Positions 4,594 through 16,404 of a stretch of 64,000 nt of DNA are shown one piece after another; positions within the stretch are counted from its first letter, which is position 1; each line of letters begins with the position of its first letter. Where the stretch lies: the sequence record NC_027356.1; one strand, 5' to 3'. The translations under genes were made by a program, and so were the position numbers. This DNA is from Escherichia phage DT57C. The notes under the pieces are model-generated. The model was not told the DNA's origin, ran no database searches, and saw only the letters and a list, made by a program, of their open reading frames with translations.

Positions 4594-5220
4594 TATCGTC
4601 GTCTCCTTATAAGGTTAATAAGTTTGCCGCCGATGGGCTTTAAAATGCACCTGATTTTTAAAGAGCGCGGCGGTAAACTTTCCGCCGTGTAGTTCGTCAT
4701 TGCCGCCCTACGAGATAAATAATAGGGAATACCCAAAAAAGGTGCAACCTTAATTTTGTAAAGAAATGTAAAGAAAGCAAATACCCGCACCGCGTCCGGC
4801 GATCGCCCAAGTTTAAAGGAAACAGGCGCGCGGATACCATAAAACCGAGCTGATTGGCAAGTAATTTTTTCATTTTTATTTGCCTTGCCCTACTTGACAA
4901 AACTTAAAAAGCTCGTGGTGACGATAAACGGGCTATCCCTTTATGATGGGATACCTGAAAAATTTACCGCGTTGTAGGACGTTTTAGGCCGCTTATCTTC
5001 GATTTAACAAATATTTAACAAAAGCAAAATTGAAAAATAGTTTGAGAAGGTATTGACTTTTTAAAATCAAGACTAAACGAGTTATTTTAAAAAATTAATT
5101 AATTGACTTTTATTTGTTGTTGTGTAGTAGAAAGATAGCAGACTAATAATTGCTAGAATGATAATCATGCTGGTGATTGTAACAGACTGAACTATTAGCA
5201 GACTACTGATCCCGGAAAAT

Positions 5221-5260
5221 CTCATTAGCCAACTAACTATCTCATTAGCCAACTAACTAT
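5221..5260. repeat. Direct repeat 2 x 20 bp (ctcattagccaactaactat)
   Basis: Identical tandem copies read directly. Confidence 0.8.
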
Positions 5261-5265
5261 TTCAT

Positions 5266-5450
5266 AAGTTATAATAACTATAAAAATAATCACCGTTAAA
5301 ATAATCACTATAAAAATAATCACCATTAAAATAATAACTATAGAAATAATCACCATTATAATAATCACCATTAAAATAATCACTATAAAAATAATCACCA
5401 TTAAAATAATCACTATAAAAATAATCACCATTATTATAATCACTATAAGA
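5266..5450. repeat. AT-rich tandem repeat block (units ~12/24 bp, aataatcac[ct]a[t]taaaa)
   Basis: ~8 reiterations visible; explains spurious I/V-rich ORF 5237-5443. Confidence 0.8.
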
Positions 5451-5486
5451 AACTATCGGCTTAAGTGAGAACCACTATCATTTAAG

Positions 5487-6483: not shown

Positions 6484-6828
6484 ATGGTGATTTATGAAGG
6501 TGATCGCCTTGTTGCTGATTGCCGTCCGGCATTGTTAGCAAACTACTTAAACCAGCTTTCGCCAGTATATAAAGGCGTTATAAATATTTATGAAGGCGGG
6601 GCGCATTATAAGATTAATGCGGTCGTTGCCCGTGAACTAGCGTTTCAATTTTTAACCTTTTCATCTTGCAATATTCAGGTCATGGGTGAGGCGTTAATTG
6701 CAGAAAATGAAGATGATTTTATTAATATCTTTCGCAAGATATGCACCGAGCGCCTGATAATGAAAGGGGCATATATTCAATCCACTGCGGATAGTATTGA
6801 AACGGCTTTTCGAAAGGTGGCACAATGA
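6484..6828 (+). CDS. Hypothetical protein
   Basis: 114-aa ORF; GGAGG RBS 6 nt upstream. Confidence 0.5.
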   Translation: MVIYEGDRLVADCRPALLANYLNQLSPVYKGVINIYEGGAHYKINAVVARELAFQFLTFSSCNIQVMGEALIAENEDDFINIFRKICTERLIMKGAYIQSTADSIETAFRKVAQ

Positions 6829-6952
6829 AGCTATATATTTTCGCGGGTAATGTTGAGGCTGCAAATGATTCCGCTGGTGGCGATAGCGTTCGCCATTATT
6901 GGCAAAATTATATTTACTAGGCGTAATGATCACGGGGCACAACTATCAGGGA

Positions 6953-6979
6953 GTGCCCCTGATTCTCAAATGAGAATGA
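6953..6979 (+). terminator. Hairpin (ggggcac...gtgcccc) at end of small operon
   Basis: 7-bp GC stem read directly; weak U-tract. Confidence 0.3.
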
Positions 6980-7182
6980 TTCTCATTTGACCGCGCCCGC
7001 GATGGTTAGCACACTAATGATTAGGGTGTTACGTGTCGCCTTGTGTGATCGTTAGCGGGCTAACTAATTTTCAAGCCTCCTCCAGATTTGCCCTTGTTTT
7101 AGTATCCCCATCAAAATAAAACGCGTTAGAAAGCGATTCAGGGCGTTTTAGGCCTATATTAGAATTATCCACTGCGTAGGAA

Positions 7183-7202
7183 TACTGTATATTTATACAG
7201 TA
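7183..7202. promoter_or_regulatory. LexA (SOS) box-like palindrome TACTGTATATTTATACAGTA
   Basis: CTGT-N8-ACAG with AT-rich spacer, matches E. coli LexA consensus at nearly all positions. Confidence 0.5.
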
Positions 7203-7211
7203 GAATAACCT

Positions 7212-7292
7212 GGGGATAAGTCGGTGGATAACGCTTCAAAATGGCTAGAATTTTGTCAAGGCAAATCGTGCTGTTGATAAGTCTGTGGATAA
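7212..7292 (-). promoter_or_regulatory. DnaA-box cluster in inverse orientation (TGTGGATAA and variants)
   Basis: Perfect box at 7284-7292, 1-mismatch box at 7224-7232, partial ttatc-core boxes nearby. Confidence 0.5.
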
Positions 7293-7309
7293 CTTAAATA
7301 ACAGTGTTT

Positions 7310-7590
7310 CTCACTTCCGTTTTTAAATGCGAATCATTATCATTTGCATTCCACTTCTTAAATGAGAATCATTTCACTTCTTGAATAGTTCTCATTCCCT
7401 TTCTTAAATGAGAATCATTTCACTTCTTGAATAGTTCTCATTTCACTTCTTGAATAGTTCTCATTCCACTTCTTAAATGAGAATCATTCCACTTCTTAAA
7501 TGAGAATCATTCCACCTCTTAAATGAGAATGATTATCATTCGCATTCCACTTCTTAAATGCGAATGATAATCATTCTCATTCGCATTCCG
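7310..7590. repeat. Tandem array of ~22-bp repeats (cacttctt[a/g]aat[g]agaatcatt), ~10 units, flanked by palindromes
   Basis: Repeats read directly; iteron-like organisation next to DnaA boxes. Confidence 0.8.
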
Positions 7591-7594
7591 GCGA

Positions 7595-7612
7595 GCAGGG
7601 CAATTGCCCTGC
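7595..7612. repeat. Perfect 18-bp palindrome GCAGGGCAATTGCCCTGC
   Basis: Self-complementary sequence read directly. Confidence 0.8.
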
Positions 7613-7617
7613 GCTTA

Positions 7618-8361
7618 TGTGCAAATCCGACAATTGCTCCAAGGGTTACGCGAGGGCATGTATGTGCAAATCCGACCCATTTTTTGGTAGTGTGCAAATC
7701 CGACCCCAAAAATTTATAAATTCGTGAGAGTGACAAATCTGTCTCCCAAAAACTCCAGCAATCACGAACTGCGTTCGAATCCTGTGGGGTATGTGCAAAT
7801 CCGACACGGTTTTTCTAGGATTAAGATGTGCGAATCCGATGAAATTTTTGTGACTTCGATGAGAGGGTGTGTGATTGTATAGGTTTGAGGAGAAGATGAG
7901 AGAGCGAGAAAAATTTTGGGGCTAGAAGTGTATGGGCGCAGGATTGGTGCGGAGCACCTGATTTGCGGGGGTTTTGGGGGATAGTGGAGATAATTTGGGG
8001 AAATTTGAGATAGGTGCAGAAAAAGTAAAATTTTATTAGCTAAAGGGGGCAATATAGCTTGACAATTGAAAATTCTTGTGGCTCTAAAAACTCAGGCAAT
8101 CATGGGCCTTCGGCCCGAAATAATGCTGCTATTTTCAGGAGATTATATGTTCCTAAAAACTTAGGCGTTTGTGCAAATCCGACCATAAATTTCTAGAAAC
8201 ACAATGTGCAAATCCGACAGTAATTCCTGGAAATGTGTTTTCAAAAAATGTCTCCTAGAAATAACCGCCCTCCCTATAACCGCCCTCCCTATAACCGGCC
8301 TAGGTATGTAACGTTGGAGGGAAACTGCCCTAGAATATGTGCAAATCCGATTAATATTTTT
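7618..8361 (+). repeat. Dispersed array of 8 copies of 13-mer TGTGCAAATCCGA(C/T), most followed by N4-6 and a T-run; interleaved CCTAGAA motifs
   Basis: Copies at ~7618, 7663, 7692, 7792, 7827 (variant), 8169, 8206, 8347; a ninth inside CDS at ~10394. Confidence 0.75.
8261..8300. repeat. Direct repeat ataaccgccctccct x2 (+ partial third)
   Basis: Read directly. Confidence 0.7.
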
Positions 8362-8725
8362 GTGTGATCCCTAGAATTTGTGCTTATCAATTTCCTAGAA
8401 ACTTAGGAGTCTGCTAGAAAGTGTTGAGCCATCCTAGCAGATGAGCGGCAACCGGTGTATCATCTTGAACACAGATATTGCCTTTAAATTTTTATCAGTT
8501 ATTTAAAAGTAAATAGTCCCCCATTTCATGTGAGATTCCTCGTGGGGCGCGTGAGTATTACGGAAGACTTAGTAATTAGATCTATACTCGTGCTGTCGCA
8601 ACGTATAGACGTAATACTAAGTGTAATAATCATCGCCCCTAGAGTTCAAAACAAGAGTTGTTTTTAATCTATGAGATTATTATAACATGTTTGGGTATGA
8701 GAATGCAAGAACTTTTTGTTAACGT

Positions 8726-9082
8726 TTATACTTCCTCCTCGAGATTGGTATTAGGATCGTAAATTTTCTTGGCTCCTGTATTTAATAGGAATCGCTCTGC
8801 AAGTAGTGGGTGAATATCAAAGAACTCTGTGCATCCTTCGAATCCCTTTAAATTACAGCGGTATTTCTTAAAGTAGATATGAGCAGCGGCTTCTAGATCT
8901 CTAGGATTATGGGTTTCATAAATCCCATACACGTATAAATCGTCAAAACCACGATAAACTATATTATCTAAGTTTAGTGTTTGAATCCTATTATGTGGAT
9001 TCACACTGATACCGATCTTTGTTCTTTTAGGGATCTTCGTCAGATCCCTATTTGCAAGAATATATGCTTTATATAGTGACAT
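8726..9082 (-). CDS. Hypothetical protein; possible GIY-YIG/T5orf172-like motif (YKAYIL...KIGIS)
   Basis: 118-aa ORF; weak motif resemblance only. Confidence 0.45.
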   Translation of the reverse strand: MSLYKAYILANRDLTKIPKRTKIGISVNPHNRIQTLNLDNIVYRGFDDLYVYGIYETHNPRDLEAAAHIYFKKYRCNLKGFEGCTEFFDIHPLLAERFLLNTGAKKIYDPNTNLEEEV

Positions 9083-9809
9083 TCTTTCTAGCCTTTAGAT
9101 AGATTCCTTTAGATGCTAGATAGATATATGTAGCAAGGAATGAAGATGTAGATCCTGTTTCTTCAAGAGTAATAGATCCTTTTGCATAACGCTTAGTTCT
9201 AGGAGCCTGGTTAAGCACAAGTGCAGTGAGACTACCTAATCCTAGCGCATCCATTAAACGTTTGAAGGAGTCCTTTTCATCGTGGATAGCATATAGAATG
9301 TAATCTTCCGCTGTAGTTAGTTCTATATCGCGATGATGTGCCACTGCAATCCGTGCTACTACAGCTCCAATCGTTCTATAAATATCTTCAAACGTAATGC
9401 TAGTTTCAAAAGCTAATGCTGGAAGATGATCGAACTTACATTTCTTAGGCGGAATAAGAAGTTGTTCAGGATAAGCTTCTAGTGCCTGACGAACGTTTGC
9501 TTCTGGGTATGTTGGCAAAGGTTCATCTATAATAACATGTAAGAAATTAGCTCTGTGTCCTTTAGCAGTTGGATCTAAAGACTTCAATACTTTGTTCATA
9601 TCTACGTATGAATACGCTAGATCTGCTTGTGGGGCATTAATATCAAACTTAATCTTCTTACCCTCCCATTTAGCAGGGAACATCTCACAAACAAACATTA
9701 CTGCATGTTTAACCTCTGGCTCCAGCTCTGATAGACATTTGTGATCTGCTGTTACTGCTAGAGCGAGAATATTCTTAAATTTATTAGCTTCTTCAATCAT
9801 ATATCCCAT
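9069..9809 (-). CDS. Hypothetical protein
   Basis: 246-aa ORF, co-oriented, overlapping stop/start with neighbours. Confidence 0.55.
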   Translation of the reverse strand: MGYMIEEANKFKNILALAVTADHKCLSELEPEVKHAVMFVCEMFPAKWEGKKIKFDINAPQADLAYSYVDMNKVLKSLDPTAKGHRANFLHVIIDEPLPTYPEANVRQALEAYPEQLLIPPKKCKFDHLPALAFETSITFEDIYRTIGAVVARIAVAHHRDIELTTAEDYILYAIHDEKDSFKRLMDALGLGSLTALVLNQAPRTKRYAKGSITLEETGSTSSFLATYIYLASKGIYLKARKNVTI

Positions 9810-10138
9810 GCCTGCTGACTATTATCACTAACTTGTGTCTTTTTCTCTCTTCGTGGTTTAAAAGTTCCTGTAGTATTACTTTTACTAGGTTCTAATTTAT
9901 ACCACAGCATTCCTAGCTGGTTAACCATATGAGCAACATTTCTAGGGGTCAATGGCGGTAGGGATTCACAGTTTGATATCTCCCTTAATATATTAAATAG
10001 TTCTGCCTCTTTAGCTTTATTGTTTACTACCACCACGTACTCTAATGTTTCTACCTCAGAATCCTCATCCTTATAGTAGAGGCTAAGAGTAATTAAATTC
10101 TCCCCAGCAGGGGCTATTTTTGTTTTACCAAATATCAT
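9797..10138 (-). CDS. Hypothetical protein
   Basis: 113-aa ORF in operon context. Confidence 0.5.
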   Translation of the reverse strand: MIFGKTKIAPAGENLITLSLYYKDEDSEVETLEYVVVVNNKAKEAELFNILREISNCESLPPLTPRNVAHMVNQLGMLWYKLEPSKSNTTGTFKPRREKKTQVSDNSQQAWDI

Positions 10139-10734
10139 TAACTACCTCTCTTATCTTCGTTAAGAGCAGCTCCTAGTGCTTCCATAATTGCATCTTCTAT
10201 ACTTCCATGCTTACTAGGATTGCTTAAGTGAATAGTATATGAGTTCCTAGAAACTCCAGAGTCCACAGGTGCTGCGCTTTTCCTATCAGACTCAAAAGCT
10301 TCTTGGGTATGTTTCAACTGTACAGAAGGCCCATAGTCTTCCCCAACTCGATAGGACTGATTAGACGACAGCGTACCACCGCAGGGAACATTGTGCAAAT
10401 CCGATGGATTATTTAATAGTGCAATACCACCTCTTGGCCACGAGTCACTAACATGAGTACTAGGACGGTTAACCTCAGTCTTCACGAGTTTATAACCAGC
10501 ATCTATTAATGCATTAATAAGGTTATCAGCTGGAATGCGAGCCTTGCCAAAAATCTCACGAGCGTTGTTGAGCCTACCTTCAAAACCTTTACATGCTCTA
10601 ATATTAGTGTGTGCAAAGGTTAGCTTCATAGATTTGAATTGTACAGTAGCAGTTAAATCTTTAAAGCTATAATCCCACGTATTCAGTTCATGATCTGGTA
10701 CTACTTGAATAGATTGCTGTGCATATAAAGTCAT
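10138..10734 (-). CDS. Hypothetical protein
   Basis: 198-aa ORF; contains one copy of the 13-mer motif. Confidence 0.55.
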   Translation of the reverse strand: MTLYAQQSIQVVPDHELNTWDYSFKDLTATVQFKSMKLTFAHTNIRACKGFEGRLNNAREIFGKARIPADNLINALIDAGYKLVKTEVNRPSTHVSDSWPRGGIALLNNPSDLHNVPCGGTLSSNQSYRVGEDYGPSVQLKHTQEAFESDRKSAAPVDSGVSRNSYTIHLSNPSKHGSIEDAIMEALGAALNEDKRGS

Positions 10735-10919
10735 TATTTATTCTCCAGTTTGTCTAACAGCTTATGAGCTGCTAGATTATATTGTTTAAGCTCACGGTTA
10801 AGAATCTCATTCTCACTATTTAATTCTAAATTCTTAGTATTGAGGCGGCTGCACACAATTATCAAGCCTAGGATGGTTAAGAGTGAGCCACCTAGTAATA
10901 CAAGAAGTAATGTTCCCAT
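10734..10919 (-). CDS. Small membrane protein
   Basis: 61-aa ORF with N-terminal TM segment. Confidence 0.45.
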   Translation of the reverse strand: MGTLLLVLLGGSLLTILGLIIVCSRLNTKNLELNSENEILNRELKQYNLAAHKLLDKLENK

Positions 10920-11152
10920 TATTTGATTCCCATGTAACGTTTGAGATATACGATAAAGTCTTCCGCTTTATGTTCTAGGCTACCTTGAGCCACGAATAAC
11001 TTGAGAGCTTCACGCTGTTGTTTGAGATTAGTAACTTCGCTACGCAACTTCACGTTATCGTCAATAACCTGATTGGCTTCACGAGTCTTATGCACAGCAG
11101 TGCTAATAGCAAATACTAATGCAATTGCTAAGATAATTAATATATATTCCAT
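10919..11152 (-). CDS. Small membrane protein
   Basis: 77-aa ORF with N-terminal TM segment. Confidence 0.45.
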   Translation of the reverse strand: MEYILIILAIALVFAISTAVHKTREANQVIDDNVKLRSEVTNLKQQREALKLFVAQGSLEHKAEDFIVYLKRYMGIK

Positions 11153-11442
11153 TAGTTACTCCAAATTAACATCCAACTCTTATCAAGGTTAGATGCTCTA
11201 TTAATTAATTCGCCCATAGAAATGTTATTGTTGCCTATGGCTTCTTGTACAAACTCTTTACCGAAATCATCTACTAGGTATTCTGTATCATTTATAATAA
11301 TCTTGTAGAGAGCTGGGACTAAAGGATGTTGATGATTAAGAGGACTCTCGTTAACAATTATCTCATTCCTTCCCCACGTCGTCTTGAACATTTTGTGGGA
11401 GAGTAGAGCTAAGTGGTTTGACCATACAATATAGCTACTCAC
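11152..11442 (-). CDS. Hypothetical protein
   Basis: 96-aa ORF. Confidence 0.45.
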   Translation of the reverse strand: MSSYIVWSNHLALLSHKMFKTTWGRNEIIVNESPLNHQHPLVPALYKIIINDTEYLVDDFGKEFVQEAIGNNNISMGELINRASNLDKSWMLIWSN

Positions 11443-11983
11443 TACTTATCTCCATTCTTAACTTTGAGAACTTATTATACCAAACTATATGATTATCGTC
11501 AATTACAAATTTATGATAACATGCTGGTACGGTATAAGTTCCATAATCCGTGACACGCTGCACAACCTTGTGTGCACACAGTCGACATCCATGCCCTTCT
11601 AAATGAGATCTAGCAGTCTGCCAGTAATAACCATCGTGGTCTGGACAATAGATCTCAACTTGCTGTTGCATTGTTTTATAGTTTACACGCTCATACCCAA
11701 AGAAAGCCCCATGAGCTGCAATGGCTTTCTTGATAAATATAAGGTTTAGTGCTTCTTGTTGAAAGTCGGGGTGTAGCTGCTTAATCTTAGTTCTATTAAT
11801 AGACCCATCCGATTTGATGAACCTATTTATTGGAAAGTTATTAGCTTCCTCGATTAATAATTCATTTACTTTCTCTCTCATATTATATGCTCTCACAACT
11901 AAGGTGGAAACATTCGTAAGCATCCCCAGTAAACTCTTTACCCTGTAATAAACACTTAGCCTGGTCTTCTGGTACTCCAACAT
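11435..11983 (-). CDS. Hypothetical Cys/His-rich protein (possible Zn-binding); true start may be internal Met (~11881)
   Basis: 182-aa ORF; 5' end overlaps ORF 11883-12086 so an internal start is likely. Confidence 0.45.
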   Translation of the reverse strand: MLEYQKTRLSVYYRVKSLLGMLTNVSTLVVRAYNMREKVNELLIEEANNFPINRFIKSDGSINRTKIKQLHPDFQQEALNLIFIKKAIAAHGAFFGYERVNYKTMQQQVEIYCPDHDGYYWQTARSHLEGHGCRLCAHKVVQRVTDYGTYTVPACYHKFVIDDNHIVWYNKFSKLRMEISSE

Positions 11984-12086
11984 CTAATAATTGTTGTTTA
12001 CTTGGCTTTTCAGCAAATACCTTTACAAAATACTCACCATCCTGATTATATTCATTTATACCTCTAGTAAGGACATATACTTGCAT
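11883..12086 (-). CDS. Hypothetical protein
   Basis: 67-aa ORF. Confidence 0.4.
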   Translation of the reverse strand: MQVYVLTRGINEYNQDGEYFVKVFAEKPSKQQLLDVGVPEDQAKCLLQGKEFTGDAYECFHLSCESI

Positions 12087-12109
12087 TTGAAGTTCCTTGA
12101 AAACATAAA

Positions 12110-12135
12110 AGGCCAGAACAATTAAGTCCTGGCCT
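12110..12135 (-). terminator. Hairpin (aggccag...ctggcct) between ORFs
   Basis: 7-bp GC-rich stem; T-rich flank on minus strand. Confidence 0.4.
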
Positions 12136-12142
12136 CCTAAAA

Positions 12143-12580
12143 TTAATGAAGTTGTTTACCACTTCTTAACATAGTGGCCGTTTCCATAAGACCTAGCGTA
12201 GTATCACGCTTATTGATCTGTTTACCAAGTTCATCAGTACGTTTACTGATGTAAGCATTAATAGCCATATTCATAGCTGTAGCGAGATCTTCTTTGGTTA
12301 TCTCTTCATCATCTAAAGCTAGGTTAGCCAAAGAATCAAATGTGCTAGAGAGTCCTACAAGATCTGAGGTTTCTCCAGCCAAAATAGGATTAATATTATC
12401 TACTGTTACTTCTAGCATGGAGTTAACAATATCTTCACCGTCTATTAGACCAAATTCAATATTACTCTCCCACTCCTTCATCTGTTCCAGCAATGGATTT
12501 TTCTTTTCTGTCATGATAGAGGTTTCCTGTGTCAGTTGGTAAGAAGGATGATTGTGTCTTAGGAGGATGTTGCTTAGCAA
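12143..12580 (-). CDS. Hypothetical acidic protein (start probably internal)
   Basis: 145-aa ORF overlapping upstream ORF. Confidence 0.45.
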   Translation of the reverse strand: MLSNILLRHNHPSYQLTQETSIMTEKKNPLLEQMKEWESNIEFGLIDGEDIVNSMLEVTVDNINPILAGETSDLVGLSSTFDSLANLALDDEEITKEDLATAMNMAINAYISKRTDELGKQINKRDTTLGLMETATMLRSGKQLH

Positions 12581-12923
12581 TCCAGTTAAGAATCAGCACG
12601 CGACTAGGAACAATATCGGTATTATACCAAAAATCGTGAACCCATTGACGAGCATCTTCAAACTTACCAAATTTATACGCTTTCTTAAACAATTCAAATC
12701 CAAAACAATCTGGTGTAAAGTCTACTTCGCGATATTGAACTACTTTAGAGCCAGTTAGGTCTTGGATCGCTGCATTAATTTCTGTATGTGAGAATTTTGT
12801 TTCATGAAACTTATTAAAGAATCGGTAGTTGAAGCGTCCGTTCGTTTCGACAAATAACTGGATGAAGAGATCGTTAAATTGGTTATCAAACCAGTAATTC
12901 TGTAGTTGTTGTAGTGCTGTCAT
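12462..12923 (-). CDS. Hypothetical protein
   Basis: 153-aa ORF. Confidence 0.5.
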   Translation of the reverse strand: MTALQQLQNYWFDNQFNDLFIQLFVETNGRFNYRFFNKFHETKFSHTEINAAIQDLTGSKVVQYREVDFTPDCFGFELFKKAYKFGKFEDARQWVHDFWYNTDIVPSRVLILNWIAKQHPPKTQSSFLPTDTGNLYHDRKEKSIAGTDEGVGE

Positions 12924-13120
12924 TTACGAACCCCGTTAATTGCCACAATGATGCCTTCGTACATAAAAGGAAGTAACCCAGAAGTATAGAATATATTTTC
13001 CGTTATTCCTAGATGTCGAAAAAGTATATTAAATAATGCTGTTAGAAATACAATCTGAGGAAGTAATACAAAATACTCAGTTACAATCTTTGGTGCTTGA
13101 TAAACAAGACGTTTTATCAT
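12920..13120 (-). CDS. Small membrane protein
   Basis: 66-aa hydrophobic ORF. Confidence 0.4.
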   Translation of the reverse strand: MIKRLVYQAPKIVTEYFVLLPQIVFLTALFNILFRHLGITENIFYTSGLLPFMYEGIIVAINGVRK

Positions 13121-13219
13121 TGTTTTTAAGTCTCCTTATTACTTTGGCCTGCTCCACAATAATGAAAACTGCGAGCACTAATAGTGCTATTAGCCCCGCA
13201 GTAATTGGTACTAAATCAA

Positions 13220-13564
13220 TCATGGGAGACGCCATACGTAATTAGCTGTCTGTAGAACTTCGGAAACATCATCATGTTGCATCACTACAGACGTTGGAGA
13301 GTAACTATCCGCCAGTTCTGTACGAACCATCTCACGTTCTTCTCCAGTATCAATATTTTTAACAATCACTTTCATACTAAGAGGTGTTAATGCAGAAAGT
13401 GGTTTCCAAGAATCCTCAAGTTCAACCCCTACCTTTTTCTCGATTAACATGAGAACTTCTAGTGTATCATCTGGAATACTAATATTATTATTTACAAACT
13501 GTAACAGCTCATGCAAAGTATTTAACTCATTGAAATTAAGTTTCATCTTTAATAATATCCTCAA
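13220..13564 (-). CDS. Hypothetical protein
   Basis: 114-aa ORF. Confidence 0.5.
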   Translation of the reverse strand: MRILLKMKLNFNELNTLHELLQFVNNNISIPDDTLEVLMLIEKKVGVELEDSWKPLSALTPLSMKVIVKNIDTGEEREMVRTELADSYSPTSVVMQHDDVSEVLQTANYVWRLP

Positions 13565-13781
13565 TCATATCACAGGACTGTTGCAATTCGTCAGCAATGC
13601 GCTTAACATCGGTCTTCGTCACTTTACCAATTAACATCACCAGTAACATAGAAAGTATAATAAGTGGTACTGGGATAACAAATAATGCTACCTTAGCTAT
13701 ATTCTTTGGTGTCCAAGTGCGGTACTTAGTAACTAGAACTCCCACCACGACTAGATAAAATGCTAGAATAAACATTATCAT
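13536..13781 (-). CDS. Small membrane protein
   Basis: 81-aa ORF, two hydrophobic segments. Confidence 0.45.
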   Translation of the reverse strand: MIMFILAFYLVVVGVLVTKYRTWTPKNIAKVALFVIPVPLIILSMLLVMLIGKVTKTDVKRIADELQQSCDMIEDIIKDET

Positions 13782-14059
13782 TTTTTAATCTCCGTGATTA
13801 TCTGTGTACGCATTACTTTAGCAGGTAATTTATTATTCCCAACTATTGCTTCTATATTATTTAATTTTTCTTTAAGAATATCCGAGCGTCTTTGTGCTAT
13901 TTCAATATCTTGTTCTTGCTCTATTAACCGGTGGTGTAGTCCATCATTAGTAATAAGCATACTTTCCATGTTTTTCCGTGCGTTTACAATCCCAATAACT
14001 CCACCAATCGCTACTAGCGTAGTAAGGACCAGTAACCCAATAAGAATTTCAATCAACAT
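13778..14059 (-). CDS. Small membrane protein
   Basis: 93-aa ORF with N-terminal TM. Confidence 0.45.
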   Translation of the reverse strand: MLIEILIGLLVLTTLVAIGGVIGIVNARKNMESMLITNDGLHHRLIEQEQDIEIAQRRSDILKEKLNNIEAIVGNNKLPAKVMRTQIITEIKK

Positions 14060-14081
14060 TAATTATATACTCCCCTAGCCC

Positions 14082-14351
14082 TTATTTCTTACCTTTCAGT
14101 TGCTTAACTTCACGCTCAAAAGATGCTGCACGACGTTCGGCGGTTGCCTGATGCTCTTTAGCAAAACGTGCTTCTTGTTTTGCAAGGTTGAATGCCATAG
14201 CGTTCTTATTAAGAGAATCGTACATCTTTTTCATTGCTGGGATGGACATTTTCATCAGTTGCCCCTCAAATCCTTGCATATCGAGGAGAATTGCCAGAAC
14301 GTTAGCCATTTCATTTTTAGTCATGTTTTCCATTATAATTTCCTCTCTCAT
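14082..14351 (-). CDS. Hypothetical protein
   Basis: 89-aa ORF directly downstream of consensus early promoter. Confidence 0.55.
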   Translation of the reverse strand: MREEIIMENMTKNEMANVLAILLDMQGFEGQLMKMSIPAMKKMYDSLNKNAMAFNLAKQEARFAKEHQATAERRAASFEREVKQLKGKK

Positions 14352-14364
14352 TAATTTATGAACT

Positions 14365-14393
14365 TATTATACAGAATTTTGAGGTTTAAAGCA
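14365..14393 (-). promoter_or_regulatory. Sigma70-type early promoter (TTGCTT-17-TATAAT)
   Basis: -10 at 14365-14370 and -35 at 14388-14393 (plus-strand coords), AT-rich upstream, conserved downstream aaattaatgagagagg RBS region. Confidence 0.6.
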
Positions 14394-14411
14394 ACTGAAT
14401 TTTTTAATTAC

Positions 14412-14840
14412 TTACCAATCGTTAACGAAACCTGAGAACTCAGAAGTTAATACTTGTTCAAATTTCTCTGCAATTTCAGGATGATCTTTGCAGATCAGCT
14501 CAATACATGCTTCTGGAGTCATTCCTTCATCTTCAGGATCACCATAATACTTGTCCCAAAGATCATCAGGGATGATGTGCTCTGCCAAATCTTGGAAATA
14601 GACTGCCTGATAACGTGGGGCTTCTTCAGCAAAGAGTTCTTCGATCTCTTCATCTGCCTCACCTTTGTAATCTGCCATTAATAGGGCATCAGTTGCGTAA
14701 CACTCCCAAACCATCAAGCGTTCAGAAATAGGATTAGACTTATCCTGAACGTAAGACTGAAACAGGGTTCGGAAAGTTGCCTTAACTTGTTCAAATTTAT
14801 CTGCTGCTGCGAAAACTAGAGCTTTATCAACTTTGTTCAT
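14412..14840 (-). CDS. Hypothetical acidic protein
   Basis: 142-aa ORF. Confidence 0.55.
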   Translation of the reverse strand: MNKVDKALVFAAADKFEQVKATFRTLFQSYVQDKSNPISERLMVWECYATDALLMADYKGEADEEIEELFAEEAPRYQAVYFQDLAEHIIPDDLWDKYYGDPEDEGMTPEACIELICKDHPEIAEKFEQVLTSEFSGFVNDW

Positions 14841-14870
14841 TTTTATTCCTTCTCATCAATTTATAAAGTA

Positions 14871-14899
14871 ATTATACAGAAACTTAGGCATTTTAGCAA
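14871..14899 (-). promoter_or_regulatory. Sigma70-type early promoter (TTGCTA-17-TATAAT)
   Basis: -10 14871-14876, -35 14894-14899. Confidence 0.6.
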
Positions 14900-15007
14900 A
14901 TAAAACTTTTAATTAAAATGCCTAGTCCTGTACCAACAGCAATACAAATGATTATAAGTATTGCTACTGCTTGTATGATTCGTTTAATAATAACCTCAGC
15001 TATACAC

Positions 15008-15529
15008 TTAGACATTTAACATCCAGCTAGTTTTATCCTGAGAAGTATACTTACCACTCATGATGTCTTCCAGGCGTACTGGTGATTTTGCATACTCTAC
15101 ACAAACGTTAATATAACGAGGGTCTCCCATTAACTCAAAATGGGTATGCCCGTGTAAGTTCTTCTTGCCCCTTAGCTCTCCTGGATGTACTGGAGCGTGG
15201 GAAAGCCAAAAGTTTTTATACTTAACTAGGGATTGTACATTATCTACAATTCCCACTAAGTCTTTGAAAGATAACCCTTCTCGTTCTAAGTCGTGGTTCC
15301 CCAAAACTAATGTAGTTCTAACATTGCTAAAGAGTTTTTCGAACTTCTCCAAACCATTTCTAGATACAAATGCATCTCCTAAAATATAAAATACTGTACG
15401 CTTATCTTTCATGGATGTAATAGTATCCATGATAAATTCATCATGCTCTTCCATAGTAGAGAAGATTGGTCTGAATTTAGTAATATTTGCATGTCCTAAA
15501 TGGAGATCACTCCAAAAGCAGACTTTCAT
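15008..15529 (-). CDS. Calcineurin-like metallophosphoesterase
   Basis: 173-aa ORF; motifs DLHLGH, GDAF, GNHD, GHTH. Confidence 0.6.
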   Translation of the reverse strand: MKVCFWSDLHLGHANITKFRPIFSTMEEHDEFIMDTITSMKDKRTVFYILGDAFVSRNGLEKFEKLFSNVRTTLVLGNHDLEREGLSFKDLVGIVDNVQSLVKYKNFWLSHAPVHPGELRGKKNLHGHTHFELMGDPRYINVCVEYAKSPVRLEDIMSGKYTSQDKTSWMLNV

Positions 15530-16404
15530 TAAAGAATCCTCTGTATGCCACAGCTATCTTCTCGAAGCGTGGTAAATGTTGTGATTTTGCCAGTTTCATC
15601 ATTAACTTGCGCAACCGTCAACTGCCCGTTGAAGACACCGCCAGTATCTAGGTAAACACGATTCTGGTATAAAATAGGGTAAGGTACTCCAGTATGCCCA
15701 TGAAACACAAAGTCTACTCCATTAACTGGAGGTACTTCTACCATGTATTTTTCTTTAAATCCTGCATAACGCTGGAAGTACGGGTGTTCCTCACTATTTT
15801 TGGACAAATGGAAGCCTATTTCTTGTATTACATCTCGATCCCATAAGTATGGTTCAACATGGTATTCAGGATGGTCATGTGGGTCTTCCTTAGCTGCTTC
15901 TACTTGTGCAATAAGGCTATCCCATACTGGGGTTTCTACTTCGTTACCGCATTCTTTGTACGTAAAAGGTACACCACCATGAACAACACCATATTTCTTG
16001 CCACGATGCAGCACAGTCAGAAATACTGGAAGTTTTTCAGCCATGTCTTCGGCAATATTTTTAATGGTATCTGTATCTAGTTCATTCATAGCCCACATAC
16101 CACCGTTATACATCCAGTTAGTCCAATCTCCTCCAATCATAAACTGGTCGTGGTTTCCACGAACGCTACAGAAACGTGGATTATACAGGAATTTGGCTAA
16201 AACTTGCAGATTCTGTGTGCCTCGATCAATTAAATCTCCCACGCATACAACGCAATCTTTCTTGCCGTTATAGCCAGCTAATTGTAGTGCATCTTCTAGC
16301 AAATCGTTGCATCCATGAATATCACCAACAAAGAATAAGTTAACATCATCAGGTACTACTAGTGTTTTATGTACATTAAATTCTTTTTTCATAATTATTC
16401 CCAA
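15529..16404 (-). CDS. Serine/threonine protein phosphatase (PPP family)
   Basis: 291-aa ORF; GDIHG, GDLIDRG, GNHD motifs. Confidence 0.7.
   Translation of the reverse strand: MGIIMKKEFNVHKTLVVPDDVNLFFVGDIHGCNDLLEDALQLAGYNGKKDCVVCVGDLIDRGTQNLQVLAKFLYNPRFCSVRGNHDQFMIGGDWTNWMYNGGMWAMNELDTDTIKNIAEDMAEKLPVFLTVLHRGKKYGVVHGGVPFTYKECGNEVETPVWDSLIAQVEAAKEDPHDHPEYHVEPYLWDRDVIQEIGFHLSKNSEEHPYFQRYAGFKEKYMVEVPPVNGVDFVFHGHTGVPYPILYQNRVYLDTGGVFNGQLTVAQVNDETGKITTFTTLREDSCGIQRIL

What the first reader, a model, noticed from the sequence alone, without database searches (positions are those of the whole stretch)
8726..14059. Promoter-less, tightly packed block of 15 unknown genes at the distal end of the early array
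From 14059 down to 8726 the ORFs overlap or abut with no internal consensus promoters and one weak hairpin, unlike the promoter-per-gene pattern elsewhere. The block is AT-rich and contains several tiny membrane proteins, a Cys/His-rich protein and a possible GIY-YIG/T5orf172-like protein. It could be a single long operon of host-takeover or anti-defence factors.
Basis: inference. Interest (0 to 1): 0.45.

Follow-up and report, generated by a model that had tools for sequence, protein, structure and literature searches.

The report
T5-like phage left early gene cluster

Summary
The window is phage DT57C or a near-identical T5-like phage. The block 8726-14059 (minus strand) matches T5 genes T5.019-T5.030, plus a swappable three-gene cassette at the far end.

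The tight packing is real. There are 16 ORFs and almost all junctions are overlapping stop/start codons. The six tiny membrane proteins, the Cys/His protein and the T5orf172 protein are also confirmed.

"Promoter-less with one weak hairpin" is only partly right:
- No T5-type early promoter lies inside the block.
- The unit starts outside it, at the strongest such promoter in the window (14394), upstream of the T5.032 homologue.
- It contains a strong conserved intrinsic terminator (12139-12106).
- It contains a near-consensus sigma-70 promoter with an extended -10 (11502-11474). This is invariant in 26/26 relatives and already annotated as a promoter in T5.

One gene is not unknown: gpT5.026 is a published host-RNA-polymerase-binding regulator. 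The other products have no known fold or family. AT-richness is marginal.

The host-takeover reading is the standard, untested view. No anti-defence evidence was found.

Just beyond the block (8708-8500) sits an unannotated conserved promoter followed by a highly structured, sequence-variable element. It is a candidate small RNA.

The parts
14366..14394 (-). T5-type early promoter (TTGCTT-17-TATAAT with an upstream A-tract and a downstream ATAAATT box). This is the real start of the unit and lies outside the reported block.
   Evidence: Highest matrix score in the window, 72.9 bits. Sequence read. Conserved in all 28 related loci. T5 annotates a promoter at the matching place.
14082..14351 (-). 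T5.032 homologue (89 aa, Pfam DUF7179). First gene of the unit, 22 nt upstream of the reported block.
13778..14059 (-). T5.030 homologue, 93 aa: one transmembrane helix followed by a coiled-coil-like tail.
13536..13781 (-). T5.029 homologue, 81 aa: two-pass membrane protein (Pfam DUF7442).
13220..13546 (-). T5.028 homologue, 108 aa, acidic, function unknown.
13077..13223 (-). 48-aa single-pass membrane ORF. It fills the 'gap' left in the T5 and DT571/2 annotations. Its start overlaps the T5.028 stop (ATGA).
   Evidence: 94-100% aa identity in close relatives. In the divergent relatives the start codon is TTG or GTG and the ORF ends in an ATGA overlap with the next gene. Variable columns by codon position are 13/5/18; differing codons are 56 synonymous and 41 non-synonymous in this frame against 10/88 and 2/93 in the other two frames. 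Annotated in Bas33 as bas33_0158.
13170..13200 (-). Weak hairpin followed by a U-run, embedded in the 48-aa ORF. T5 and Lindwurm annotate it as a terminator.
   Evidence: z -0.9. The outer stem is kept by different sequences in the divergent relatives. Annotations.
12920..13120 (-). T5.027 homologue, 66 aa, annotated in T5 as having two transmembrane domains.
12462..12923 (-). gpT5.026 homologue, 153 aa: host RNA polymerase beta-subunit-binding protein that affects the early-to-late transcription switch.
   Evidence: 98% aa identity to T5 and 88-99% across 28 loci. Function from PMC7472727.
12143..12514 (-). T5.025 homologue, 123 aa, acidic (net charge -12), function unknown.
12106..12139 (-). 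Intrinsic terminator: GGCCAGGAC-TTAATT-GTTCTGGCC inside a 14-pair stem, followed by UUUUAUGUUUU.
   Evidence: -22 kcal/mol, z -5.2. Conserved in 27/28 loci whatever gene follows; the few changes keep pairing. Annotated in T5 and Lindwurm.
11883..12086 (-). T5.024 homologue, 67 aa. Accessory gene, absent from 9 of 28 relatives. Almost no reads in Bas33 RNA-seq.
11435..11881 (-). T5.023 homologue, 148 aa, the Cys/His-rich protein. Residues 1-103 match the non-nuclease N-terminal half of a T5orf172 endonuclease.
   Evidence: 63% identity to residues 4-106 of the 242-aa endonuclease P0129. PHROG endonuclease profiles match residues 47-106. 97-100% conserved in close relatives.
11474..11502 (-). 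Internal sigma-70 promoter TTGACG-17-TGgTATAAT, inside the 3' end of the T5.023 homologue.
   Evidence: 18.7 bits against a shuffle maximum of 9.1. Invariant in 26/26 loci while nearby synonymous sites vary. Falls inside the T5 promoter feature 13212-13286.
11152..11442 (-). T5.022 homologue, 96 aa, GTG start. Divergent allele (54-60% to most relatives); absent from DT571/2.
10919..11152 (-). T5.021 homologue, 77 aa: transmembrane helix plus coiled coil (Pfam DUF7237). Absent from DT571/2.
10734..10919 (-). T5.020 homologue, 61 aa: transmembrane helix plus coiled coil.
10138..10734 (-). T5.019 homologue, 198 aa, function unknown. Found only in T5-like phages.
   Evidence: The AlphaFold model was poor, mean pLDDT 43.
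9797..10138 (-). 113-aa ORF. Part of the variable end cassette; not present in T5.
9069..9800 (-). About 243-aa ORF, identical to DT57C_000013. Part of the variable end cassette. No known fold.
8726..9082 (-). 118-aa protein consisting only of a T5orf172/MUG113 (GIY-YIG clan) nuclease domain. Sporadically present among relatives.
   Evidence: 37% identity to the C-terminal nuclease half of P0129. Presence or absence is independent of neighbouring genes.
8676..8708 (-). Promoter just after the last gene: TTGCAT-18-TGtTATAAT here, TTGACA-17/18-TGnTATAAT in most relatives.
   Evidence: A near-consensus promoter at this position scored in 24 of 29 related loci regardless of which gene is last. An extended -10 element was found in all 29. 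Hexamers are conserved while the spacer varies.
8500..8669 (-). Candidate unannotated structured RNA: a 5' hairpin, a 95-130-nt long hairpin, then a small GAA-loop hairpin and a U-rich tail.
   Evidence: MFE -51 kcal/mol, z -5.6. Eight unalignable sequence types all fold the same way, z -3.4 to -7.1. Compensatory changes in the 5' hairpin. Rank 26 of 2128 windows for excess structure. No Rfam match. No feature under the match in most of the listed phage records, out of 257 that match.

Best explanation
WHAT IT IS. This is the left-most early (second-step-transfer) gene cluster of a T5-like phage. The window is DT57C or a near-identical phage. The cluster lies about 640 bp to the right of the predicted end of the left terminal repeat. 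It is collinear with T5 genes T5.019-T5.032. At the far end it ends in a swappable cassette (113-aa, about 243-aa and T5orf172 genes) where T5 carries T5.018.

HOW IT IS READ (shown from sequence and conservation; transcription activity is inferred).
- Host sigma-70 RNA polymerase starts at the strongest T5-type early promoter in the window (14394). This promoter lies upstream of the T5.032 homologue and outside the reported block.
- Seventeen genes follow. Nearly all are joined by overlapping stop/start codons, so translation is coupled.
- A conserved intrinsic terminator (12139-12106) closes a proximal segment running from the T5.032 to the T5.025 homologue.
- A conserved near-consensus promoter with an extended -10 sits inside the 3' end of the T5.023 homologue (11502-11474). 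It can restart transcription for the distal genes and the variable cassette.

WHAT IT MAKES.
- Shown elsewhere: the gpT5.026 homologue binds the beta subunit of host RNA polymerase and promotes the early-to-late switch.
- Shown here: six very small membrane proteins, and two proteins that correspond to the two halves of one T5orf172 homing endonuclease. The T5.023 homologue is the non-nuclease half and the 118-aa protein is the nuclease domain.
- Inferred: the remaining products are non-enzymatic accessory proteins that act on host structures. The far-end cassette is cargo exchanged by recombination next to a mobile nuclease gene.
For: - Identity: 99% DNA identity to DT571/2 at the same coordinates. 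One protein is 100% identical to DT57C_000013.
- Collinearity with T5 and position next to the repeat.
- Conservation: core genes are present in all 28 related loci; the variable genes sit at the far end and at T5.021/022/024/031.
- Promoter map.
- Terminator.
- Internal promoter.
- Coupled junctions.
- gpT5.026 function: PMC7472727.
- Endonuclease halves.
- Expression in a relative: in Bas33 RNA-seq at 20 min the homologues are all expressed at 140-1740 TPM. There is no decline toward the distal end (T5.019 homologue 1732, far-end gene 1200). All fall about 6- to 18-fold when second-step transfer is blocked.
Against: - No transcription start or 3'-end mapping exists for this phage.
- In Bas33 the T5.023 homologue is as abundant (1136 TPM) as the genes before the terminator, yet it lies after the terminator and before the internal promoter. 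Its neighbour, the T5.024 homologue, has only about 2 TPM. So either the terminator leaks, or a start or processing site exists that I cannot recognise.
- Only one of 17 products has a tested function.
- Structure prediction failed for the T5.019 homologue (pLDDT 43).
- The about 243-aa protein matched no known fold.
Confidence: 0.72

Rival explanations
1. One reading: one uninterrupted 5.7-kb operon. The hairpin at 12139-12106 would be only an RNA-stability or attenuating element, and the 11502 site would be a coding-sequence coincidence with no promoter activity.
For: - No T5-type early promoter lies inside the block.
- Nearly every junction is translationally coupled.
- In Bas33 the gene after the terminator region (T5.023 homologue, 1136 TPM) is as abundant as the genes before it (T5.025 homologue, 789 TPM). 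This is what read-through would give.
Against: - The 11502 site matches 11 of 12 positions plus an extended -10. Both hexamers are invariant in 26/26 loci, including divergent ones where neighbouring synonymous sites change.
- The terminator is a 14-pair, -22 kcal/mol stem with a U-run. It is conserved in 27/28 loci independently of the downstream gene.
- The first gene after it has about 2 TPM in Bas33.
- The most distal Bas33 genes have the highest TPM, which simple polarity from one promoter would not give.
Confidence: 0.22
2. An anti-defence island: the block, especially its variable far end, encodes inhibitors of bacterial immune systems.
For: - The far-end cassette and several small genes (T5.021, T5.022, T5.024, T5.031) are swapped, divergent or absent among otherwise close relatives. 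That pattern is common for counter-defence genes.
Against: - No member matches a known family apart from domains of unknown function and the nuclease domain.
- The about 243-aa protein has no fold match.
- I found no paper assigning an anti-defence role to T5.019-T5.032.
- The core genes are highly conserved (T5.026 88-99%, T5.023 97-100% in close relatives) rather than diversifying.
Confidence: 0.15
3. Much of the distal part is debris left by homing-endonuclease traffic (split or truncated nuclease genes and hitch-hiking ORFs) with no function for the phage.
For: - The T5.023 homologue and the 118-aa protein match the two halves of one 242-aa endonuclease.
- In two relatives the intact enzyme sits at the far end, and T5.022-T5.024 are missing.
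- The nuclease-domain gene is sporadic.
Against: - The T5.023 homologue is among the most conserved proteins of the block (97-100%).
- All distal homologues are well expressed in Bas33.
- ORFs are intact in all loci.
Confidence: 0.08

Closest known systems
Phage T5 early genes T5.018-T5.032 (AY543070 10936-16238; ORF018-028 of AY587007)
   Same: - Same order and strand.
- Same position just right of the left terminal repeat and its repeat-rich non-coding region.
- Same promoter upstream of T5.032, same terminator after T5.025 and same promoter inside T5.023.
- 70-99% protein identity for T5.019, T5.020 and T5.023-T5.030.
   Different: - T5.018 is replaced by three other genes (window 8470-10150 has no T5 counterpart).
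- T5.031 is absent.
- T5.021 and T5.022 are divergent alleles (54-57%).
- The 48-aa ORF is not annotated in T5.
gpT5.026, RNA polymerase-binding protein of T5 (Klimuk et al. 2020, PMC7472727)
   Same: The product of 12462-12923 is 98% identical over its full length. The T5 protein binds RNA polymerase with Kd below 1 nM through the beta subunit. It is non-essential, and its loss lowers burst size five-fold, raises early transcripts and lowers late ones.
   Different: Nothing was tested for this phage's copy. No solved structure exists.
Host-takeover module of Bacillus phage SPO1
   Same: Both are clusters of many small early genes of mostly unknown function. [quoted passage not shown] From my own knowledge, the SPO1 module includes a small membrane protein (gp56) that blocks the division machinery.
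   Different: No sequence relationship was found. From my own knowledge, the SPO1 module lies in the terminal redundancy and has several strong promoters. Here the cluster is in unique DNA behind one strong promoter. The toxicity of these products is untested.
T5orf172 (GIY-YIG clan) homing endonucleases of T5-like phages, e.g. the 242-aa endonuclease of Salmonella phage S124 (P0129)
   Same: The 118-aa protein has the nuclease domain (37% identity). The T5.023 homologue has the N-terminal Cys/His region (63% identity).
   Different: In this phage the two parts are separate genes about 2.3 kb apart. Neither has the full two-domain architecture. The T5.023 homologue carries an unrelated 45-residue tail that contains the internal promoter.
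Stable small RNAs of T5-like phages (RNAI, RNAIII, RNA2H, RNAX annotated in the tRNA region of DT571/2)
   Same: The candidate RNA at 8669-8500 would be another phage-encoded, promoter-driven, highly structured non-coding transcript.
   Different: It lies at a different locus, between the early cluster and the terminal repeat. It is not annotated in the records examined, has no Rfam family, and its sequence is hypervariable while its shape is kept.

Membership tests
Tequintavirus left early cluster (T5.019-T5.032) | Collinear homologues of the T5 genes | tested here: met
   tblastn matrix over 28 loci including T5; blastn T5 11912-15830 to window 10151-14066 at 88% identity.
Tequintavirus left early cluster (T5.019-T5.032) | Position in unique DNA directly right of the left terminal repeat and injection-stop region | tested here: met
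   The T5 repeat end (10219) maps to window position about 8084. The block starts at 8726.
Tequintavirus left early cluster (T5.019-T5.032) | Expression only after second-step DNA transfer (early class) | not testable with these tools
   In the relative Bas33 all homologues are transcribed at 20 min. They drop about 6- to 18-fold when infection is arrested after first-step transfer.
gpT5.026 RNA polymerase-binding protein | Full-length sequence homology to T5 gpT5.026 | tested here: met
   98% identity over 100% of the length; phrog_4215 E 2.8e-74.
gpT5.026 RNA polymerase-binding protein | Binding to the E. coli RNA polymerase beta subunit | not testable with these tools
   Shown for the T5 protein only (PMC7472727).
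T5orf172 / GIY-YIG-clan homing endonuclease | T5orf172 or MUG113 domain above the Pfam cut-off | tested here: met
   T5orf172 32.3 bits (cut-off 20); MUG113 46.1 bits (cut-off 22.3).
T5orf172 / GIY-YIG-clan homing endonuclease | A DNA-binding or targeting domain joined to the nuclease domain | tested here: not met
   The 118-aa protein covers only the nuclease part: profile positions 1-102 of 236 in phrog_18411, and residues 131-242 of P0129.
T5orf172 / GIY-YIG-clan homing endonuclease | Sporadic presence among close relatives | tested here: met
   An orthologue at 89% identity or more is present in 4 of 28 loci, independently of neighbouring genes.
Intrinsic (Rho-independent) terminator | G+C-rich stem-loop immediately followed by a U-run | tested here: met
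   14 pairs, 6 of them G-C, -22 kcal/mol, z -5.2, tail UUUUAUGUUUU.
Intrinsic (Rho-independent) terminator | Termination in vivo | tested here: inconclusive
   In Bas33 the first gene after the hairpin has about 2 TPM, but the second has 1136 TPM.
Sigma-70 promoter (internal site at 11502) | Hexamers, 17-nt spacing and extended -10 | tested here: met
   TTGACG-17-TGgTATAAT; invariant in 26/26 loci.
Sigma-70 promoter (internal site at 11502) | Transcription initiation | not testable with these tools
   Annotated only as a predicted promoter in T5.
Single operon (one promoter, no internal signals) | No internal terminator or promoter | tested here: not met
   Terminator at 12139-12106 and promoter at 11502-11474, both conserved.
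Known defence or anti-defence protein families | Significant match to a catalogued family | tested here: not met
   PADLOC gave only weak matches: the nuclease domain to PDC-S57 (E 2.5e-5) and the T5.030 homologue to PDC-S05 (E 0.005). No dedicated anti-defence library was available.
FtsB/DivIC-type division proteins (for the transmembrane plus coiled-coil proteins) | Match to the Pfam DivIC model | tested here: not met
   The T5.021 homologue scores 16.8 bits against a cut-off of 28.9.
Any Rfam RNA family (for 8669-8500) | Covariance-model match | tested here: not met
   Only a chance mir-357 match elsewhere in 6500-15000, at E 0.41.

The most novel reading that the evidence does not exclude
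The early array does not end with the last gene. Directly after that gene, whichever gene it is, T5-like phages keep a near-perfect sigma-70 promoter that drives an unannotated RNA of about 170-210 nt (window 8708-8500, minus strand). The sequence of this RNA has diverged into at least eight unalignable types, while its shape is preserved: a 5' hairpin, a very long hairpin, then a small terminal hairpin and a U-tail. It points toward the terminal repeat. It could be a regulator (for example of pre-early shut-off by reading antisense into the repeat), a replication primer, or a decoy for a host factor. Within the block itself, the terminator, the nearly silent T5.024 homologue and the internal promoter could form a regulated switch rather than a passive operon.
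Probability: 0.4. Interest if true: 0.55.

Novelty: already known. Interest (0 to 1): 0.2.

Why it matters
For the block itself it matters little. It is a sequenced, conserved and mostly uncharacterised accessory cluster, and the idea that such genes serve host takeover is already the textbook assumption.

What this check adds is practical:
- A corrected transcription map: the true promoter, a conserved terminator and a conserved internal promoter.
- A conserved 48-aa membrane ORF that is missing from the T5 and DT571/2 annotations.
- The recognition that the Cys/His protein and the T5orf172 protein are the two halves of one endonuclease architecture.
- A concrete candidate small RNA beside the terminal repeat.

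The candidate RNA, if real, bears on how T5-like phages coordinate events at the boundary between first-step and second-step DNA.

Tried and rejected
- The generic sigma-70 scan is uninformative as a count: 60 sites against 62.6 expected. I therefore built a T5-specific matrix.
- Pfam, PHROGs and PADLOC on all 18 products gave only domains of unknown function, the nuclease domain and endonuclease-profile fragments.
- The precomputed Pfam label PF05265 on T5.023 homologues was not reproduced by hmmscan, even at E 10. I do not rely on it.
- The PDB sequence search for the T5.026 homologue found nothing.
- The AlphaFold model of the T5.019 homologue was too poor to search (pLDDT 43).
- Similarity between that protein and T5.018 is marginal (E 0.011), so it is not claimed.
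- No paralogy was found among block proteins.
- A DivIC-like reading of the coiled-coil membrane proteins falls below the Pfam threshold.
- A promoter-like site at the T5.024/T5.023 junction (11910-11882) would start inside the T5.023 coding sequence and is not conserved in Bas33, so it was rejected.
- Multi-mapping as the cause of the T5.024 read gap in Bas33 is excluded; the gene is single-copy.
- Literature searches for T5.019-T5.032 other than T5.026 found nothing functional.
- A peptide-coding reading of the candidate RNA was rejected, because the ATG and frame exist in only some sequence types.

Full report
**What the window is.** The block matches 441 phage records, all of them T5-like. 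The best match is Escherichia phage DT571/2, at 99.0% identity and at identical coordinates (8726 onward). That match covers 89% of the block, because DT571/2 lacks about 520 bp. The roughly 243-aa product of 9069-9800 is 100% identical to DT57C_000013. The window is therefore DT57C or a near-identical Tequintavirus.

In T5 the homologous genes are T5.019-T5.032. They lie just right of the left terminal repeat and its repeat-rich non-coding region. T5 aligns to the window over 10151-14066 at 88% identity, and again over the non-coding stretch 7091-8469. Window 8470-10150 has no T5 counterpart; T5 carries T5.018 there. The T5 repeat end maps to window position about 8084, so the block lies wholly in unique, second-step-transfer DNA.

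**Checking the observation: packing and gene content.**
- Sixteen minus-strand ORFs fill 8726-14059.
- Thirteen of the fifteen internal junctions overlap (ATGA or TAATG type) and one has a 1-nt gap. The only real spacer is 56 nt.
- Six products (93, 81, 48, 66, 77 and 61 aa) are strongly hydrophobic small membrane proteins.
- The 148-aa T5.023 homologue is Cys/His-rich.
- The 118-aa product of 8726-9082 has a T5orf172/MUG113 domain above the Pfam cut-offs.
- GC content is 36.95% against a window mean of 39.0%. That is only the 11th percentile of equal-sized windows, so 'AT-rich' is marginal.

**The 'gap' is a gene.** The 99-nt space that T5 and DT571/2 leave between T5.028 and T5.027 holds a 48-aa single-pass membrane ORF (13077-13223).
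- Its start overlaps the T5.028 stop.
- It is 94-100% conserved in close relatives.
- In the divergent relatives the start codon is TTG or GTG, and the ORF ends in an ATGA overlap with T5.027.
- Variable columns fall 13/5/18 by codon position. Differing codons are 56 synonymous against 41 non-synonymous in this frame, compared with 10/88 and 2/93 in the other two frames.
- Bas33 already annotates it as bas33_0158.

**Promoters.** A generic sigma-70 scan finds no more sites than chance, 60 against 62.6 expected. T5-type early promoters are unmistakable: an A-tract, TTGCTw, 17 nt, TATAAT, then ATAAATT.

A matrix built from 26 of them scores them 36-73 bits. Inside the block the best site scores 18.7 bits and the next best -13. 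So there is indeed no T5-type promoter in the block.

The unit nevertheless begins outside the reported coordinates. The promoter at 14394 has the highest score in the window (72.9 bits). It lies upstream of the T5.032 homologue, which sits only 22 nt from the block. It is conserved in all 28 relatives.

Elsewhere on this strand there are 20 such promoters between 14.4 and 43.8 kb. The matching DT571/2 annotation has about 50 coding genes there, so the ratio is about 2.5 genes per promoter, with gaps up to 4.6 kb. 'Promoter-per-gene elsewhere' is therefore overstated. The 5.7 kb here is the longest promoter-free stretch, but not a qualitative outlier.

The 18.7-bit site is a different kind of promoter: TTGACG-17-TGgTATAAT at 11502-11474, inside the 3' end of the T5.023 homologue. 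Both hexamers and the TG are invariant in all 26 loci that carry this gene. These include divergent phages in which neighbouring synonymous positions have changed, and one of them has a perfect TTGACA. T5's own annotation places a promoter there. 'No internal consensus promoter' is therefore wrong.

**Hairpins.** The 56-nt spacer holds a 14-pair stem followed by UUUUAUGUUUU (-22 kcal/mol, z -5.2). It is conserved in 27 of 28 loci whatever gene follows, and the few changes keep pairing. It is annotated as a terminator in T5 and in Lindwurm. The second hairpin (13200-13170) is weak (z -0.9) and lies inside the 48-aa ORF.

**Gene content across relatives.**
- T5.019, T5.020, T5.023, T5.025-T5.030, T5.032 and T5.033 homologues are near-universal.
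- gpT5.026 is 88-99% conserved, and T5.023 is 97-100% conserved in close relatives.
- T5.024 is absent from 9 loci.
- T5.021 and T5.022 are divergent alleles or absent, as in DT571/2. T5.031 is absent from this window.
- The far end holds alternative cassettes: T5.018, or combinations of the 113-aa, about 243-aa and T5orf172 genes.

**Functions.** gpT5.026 is a published RNA polymerase beta-subunit-binding protein with Kd below 1 nM. It is non-essential. An amber mutant has a five-fold lower burst, more early transcripts and fewer late ones (PMC7472727).

The other products match only domains of unknown function or function-less PHROGs, and PADLOC adds nothing meaningful.

The Cys/His protein and the T5orf172 protein turn out to be related to a single enzyme. 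Residues 1-103 of the T5.023 homologue are 63% identical to the N-terminal half of a 242-aa endonuclease of Salmonella phage S124 type (P0129). The 118-aa protein is 37% identical to that enzyme's C-terminal nuclease domain. In two relatives the intact enzyme sits at the far end of the block, and T5.022-T5.024 are missing.

Structure prediction did not help. The T5.019 homologue model had pLDDT 43. The roughly 243-aa protein model had pLDDT 72 but matched no known fold.

**Expression in a relative.** Published RNA-seq of the Tequintavirus Bas33 at 20 min (PMC13250531, Dataset S1) can be mapped gene by gene. TPM values in the two untreated replicates:

| Gene (homologue) | TPM |
|---|---|
| T5.033 | 1281 / 1332 |
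| T5.030 | 535 / 623 |
| T5.029 | 502 / 569 |
| T5.028 | 1020 / 1089 |
| 48-aa ORF | 140 / 137 |
| T5.027 | 703 / 743 |
| T5.026 | 1444 / 1483 |
| T5.025 | 789 / 799 |
| T5.024 | 1.8 / 2.5 |
| T5.023 | 1136 / 1186 |
| T5.021-like | 154 / 159 |
| T5.020 | 366 / 369 |
| T5.019 | 1732 / 1737 |
| far-end gene | 1200 / 1121 |

All values fall about 6- to 18-fold when infection is arrested after first-step transfer, so these are early genes. There is no decline toward the distal end. This fits an internal promoter, or efficient read-through.

The near-empty T5.024 homologue is unexplained. It lies right after the terminator, it is single-copy, and it is no shorter than well-counted neighbours. I find no promoter between it and the T5.023 homologue.

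**Beyond the block.** Directly after the last gene, whichever gene that is, 24 of 29 related loci score a near-perfect promoter: TTGACA-17/18-TGnTATAAT, 12/12 in eleven loci. All 29 loci have the extended -10 element. The window has TTGCAT-18-TGtTATAAT at 8708-8676. The hexamers are conserved while the spacer varies.
- The next roughly 170 nt in the window fold at -51 kcal/mol against -30 for shuffles (z -5.6).
- Eight mutually unalignable sequence types from different phages all fold into the same three-part shape, with z from -3.4 to -7.1.
- The 5' hairpin shows compensatory changes.
- The region ranks 26th of 2128 windows for excess structure.
- It has no Rfam match.
- No feature lies under the match in most of the listed phage records, out of 257 that match.
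- It lies to the right of the repeat region analysed by Davison (9194-10409 of AY587007).

This is a candidate small RNA. It is not demonstrated.

**Verdict.** The block is a known, conserved early accessory cluster of T5-like phages. It is partly wrong on the internal promoter, the strong terminator, the boundary and the one known gene. The host-takeover reading is the conventional assumption and is supported for one gene only. I found no evidence for the anti-defence reading.

Noticed in passing
window 8500-8708, minus strand (also L031/T5, L035/Bas33 and 26 other loci): A conserved near-consensus promoter sits directly after the last gene of the early array. It is followed by a roughly 170-210-nt highly structured element. 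Its sequence falls into at least eight unalignable types, but its three-hairpin shape is kept. Most listed phage records have no feature there and there is no Rfam match. It is a candidate small RNA.
   Followed up: partly
L035 16304-16507 (Bas33 bas33_0162; homologue of window 11883-12086): In published Bas33 RNA-seq the T5.024 homologue has 7-8 reads, while both neighbouring genes have thousands. The gene is single-copy and is not unusually short. No promoter is recognisable between it and the next gene.
   Followed up: partly
window 13077-13223, minus strand: A conserved 48-aa membrane ORF lies in the annotation gap between the T5.028 and T5.027 homologues. Codon-position bias and the ATG/TTG/GTG start variants support coding. 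It is annotated in Bas33 but not in T5 or DT571/2.
   Followed up: yes
window 11435-11881 and 8726-9082; L019 12606-13322: The Cys/His protein and the T5orf172 protein correspond to the N- and C-terminal halves of one 242-aa endonuclease. That enzyme is present intact at the far end of the block in some relatives.
   Followed up: yes
window 10734-11442 compared with DT571/2 (L001/L005): The otherwise 99-100% identical DT571/2 lacks the T5.021 and T5.022 homologues, and its T5.020 homologue is only 72% identical. This recombination patch begins right at the internal promoter.
   Followed up: partly
window 7391-7690 and 5200-5470: These are the most over-structured 180-nt windows of the whole 64 kb (GC-corrected z down to -5.7). 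They coincide with the palindrome-rich injection-stop and repeat regions described for T5.
   Followed up: no
window 14893-15015, minus strand; Bas33 bas33_0152: A 40-aa hydrophobic ORF lies between the phosphoesterase gene and the promoter at 14899. Its Bas33 homologue is annotated but has 0-1 RNA-seq reads, so it may not be a real gene.
   Followed up: no
L035 13511-13783 and 16948-17235 (Bas33): The Bas33 GenBank record leaves the T5.032 and T5.022 homologues unannotated, although intact ORFs are present.
   Followed up: no
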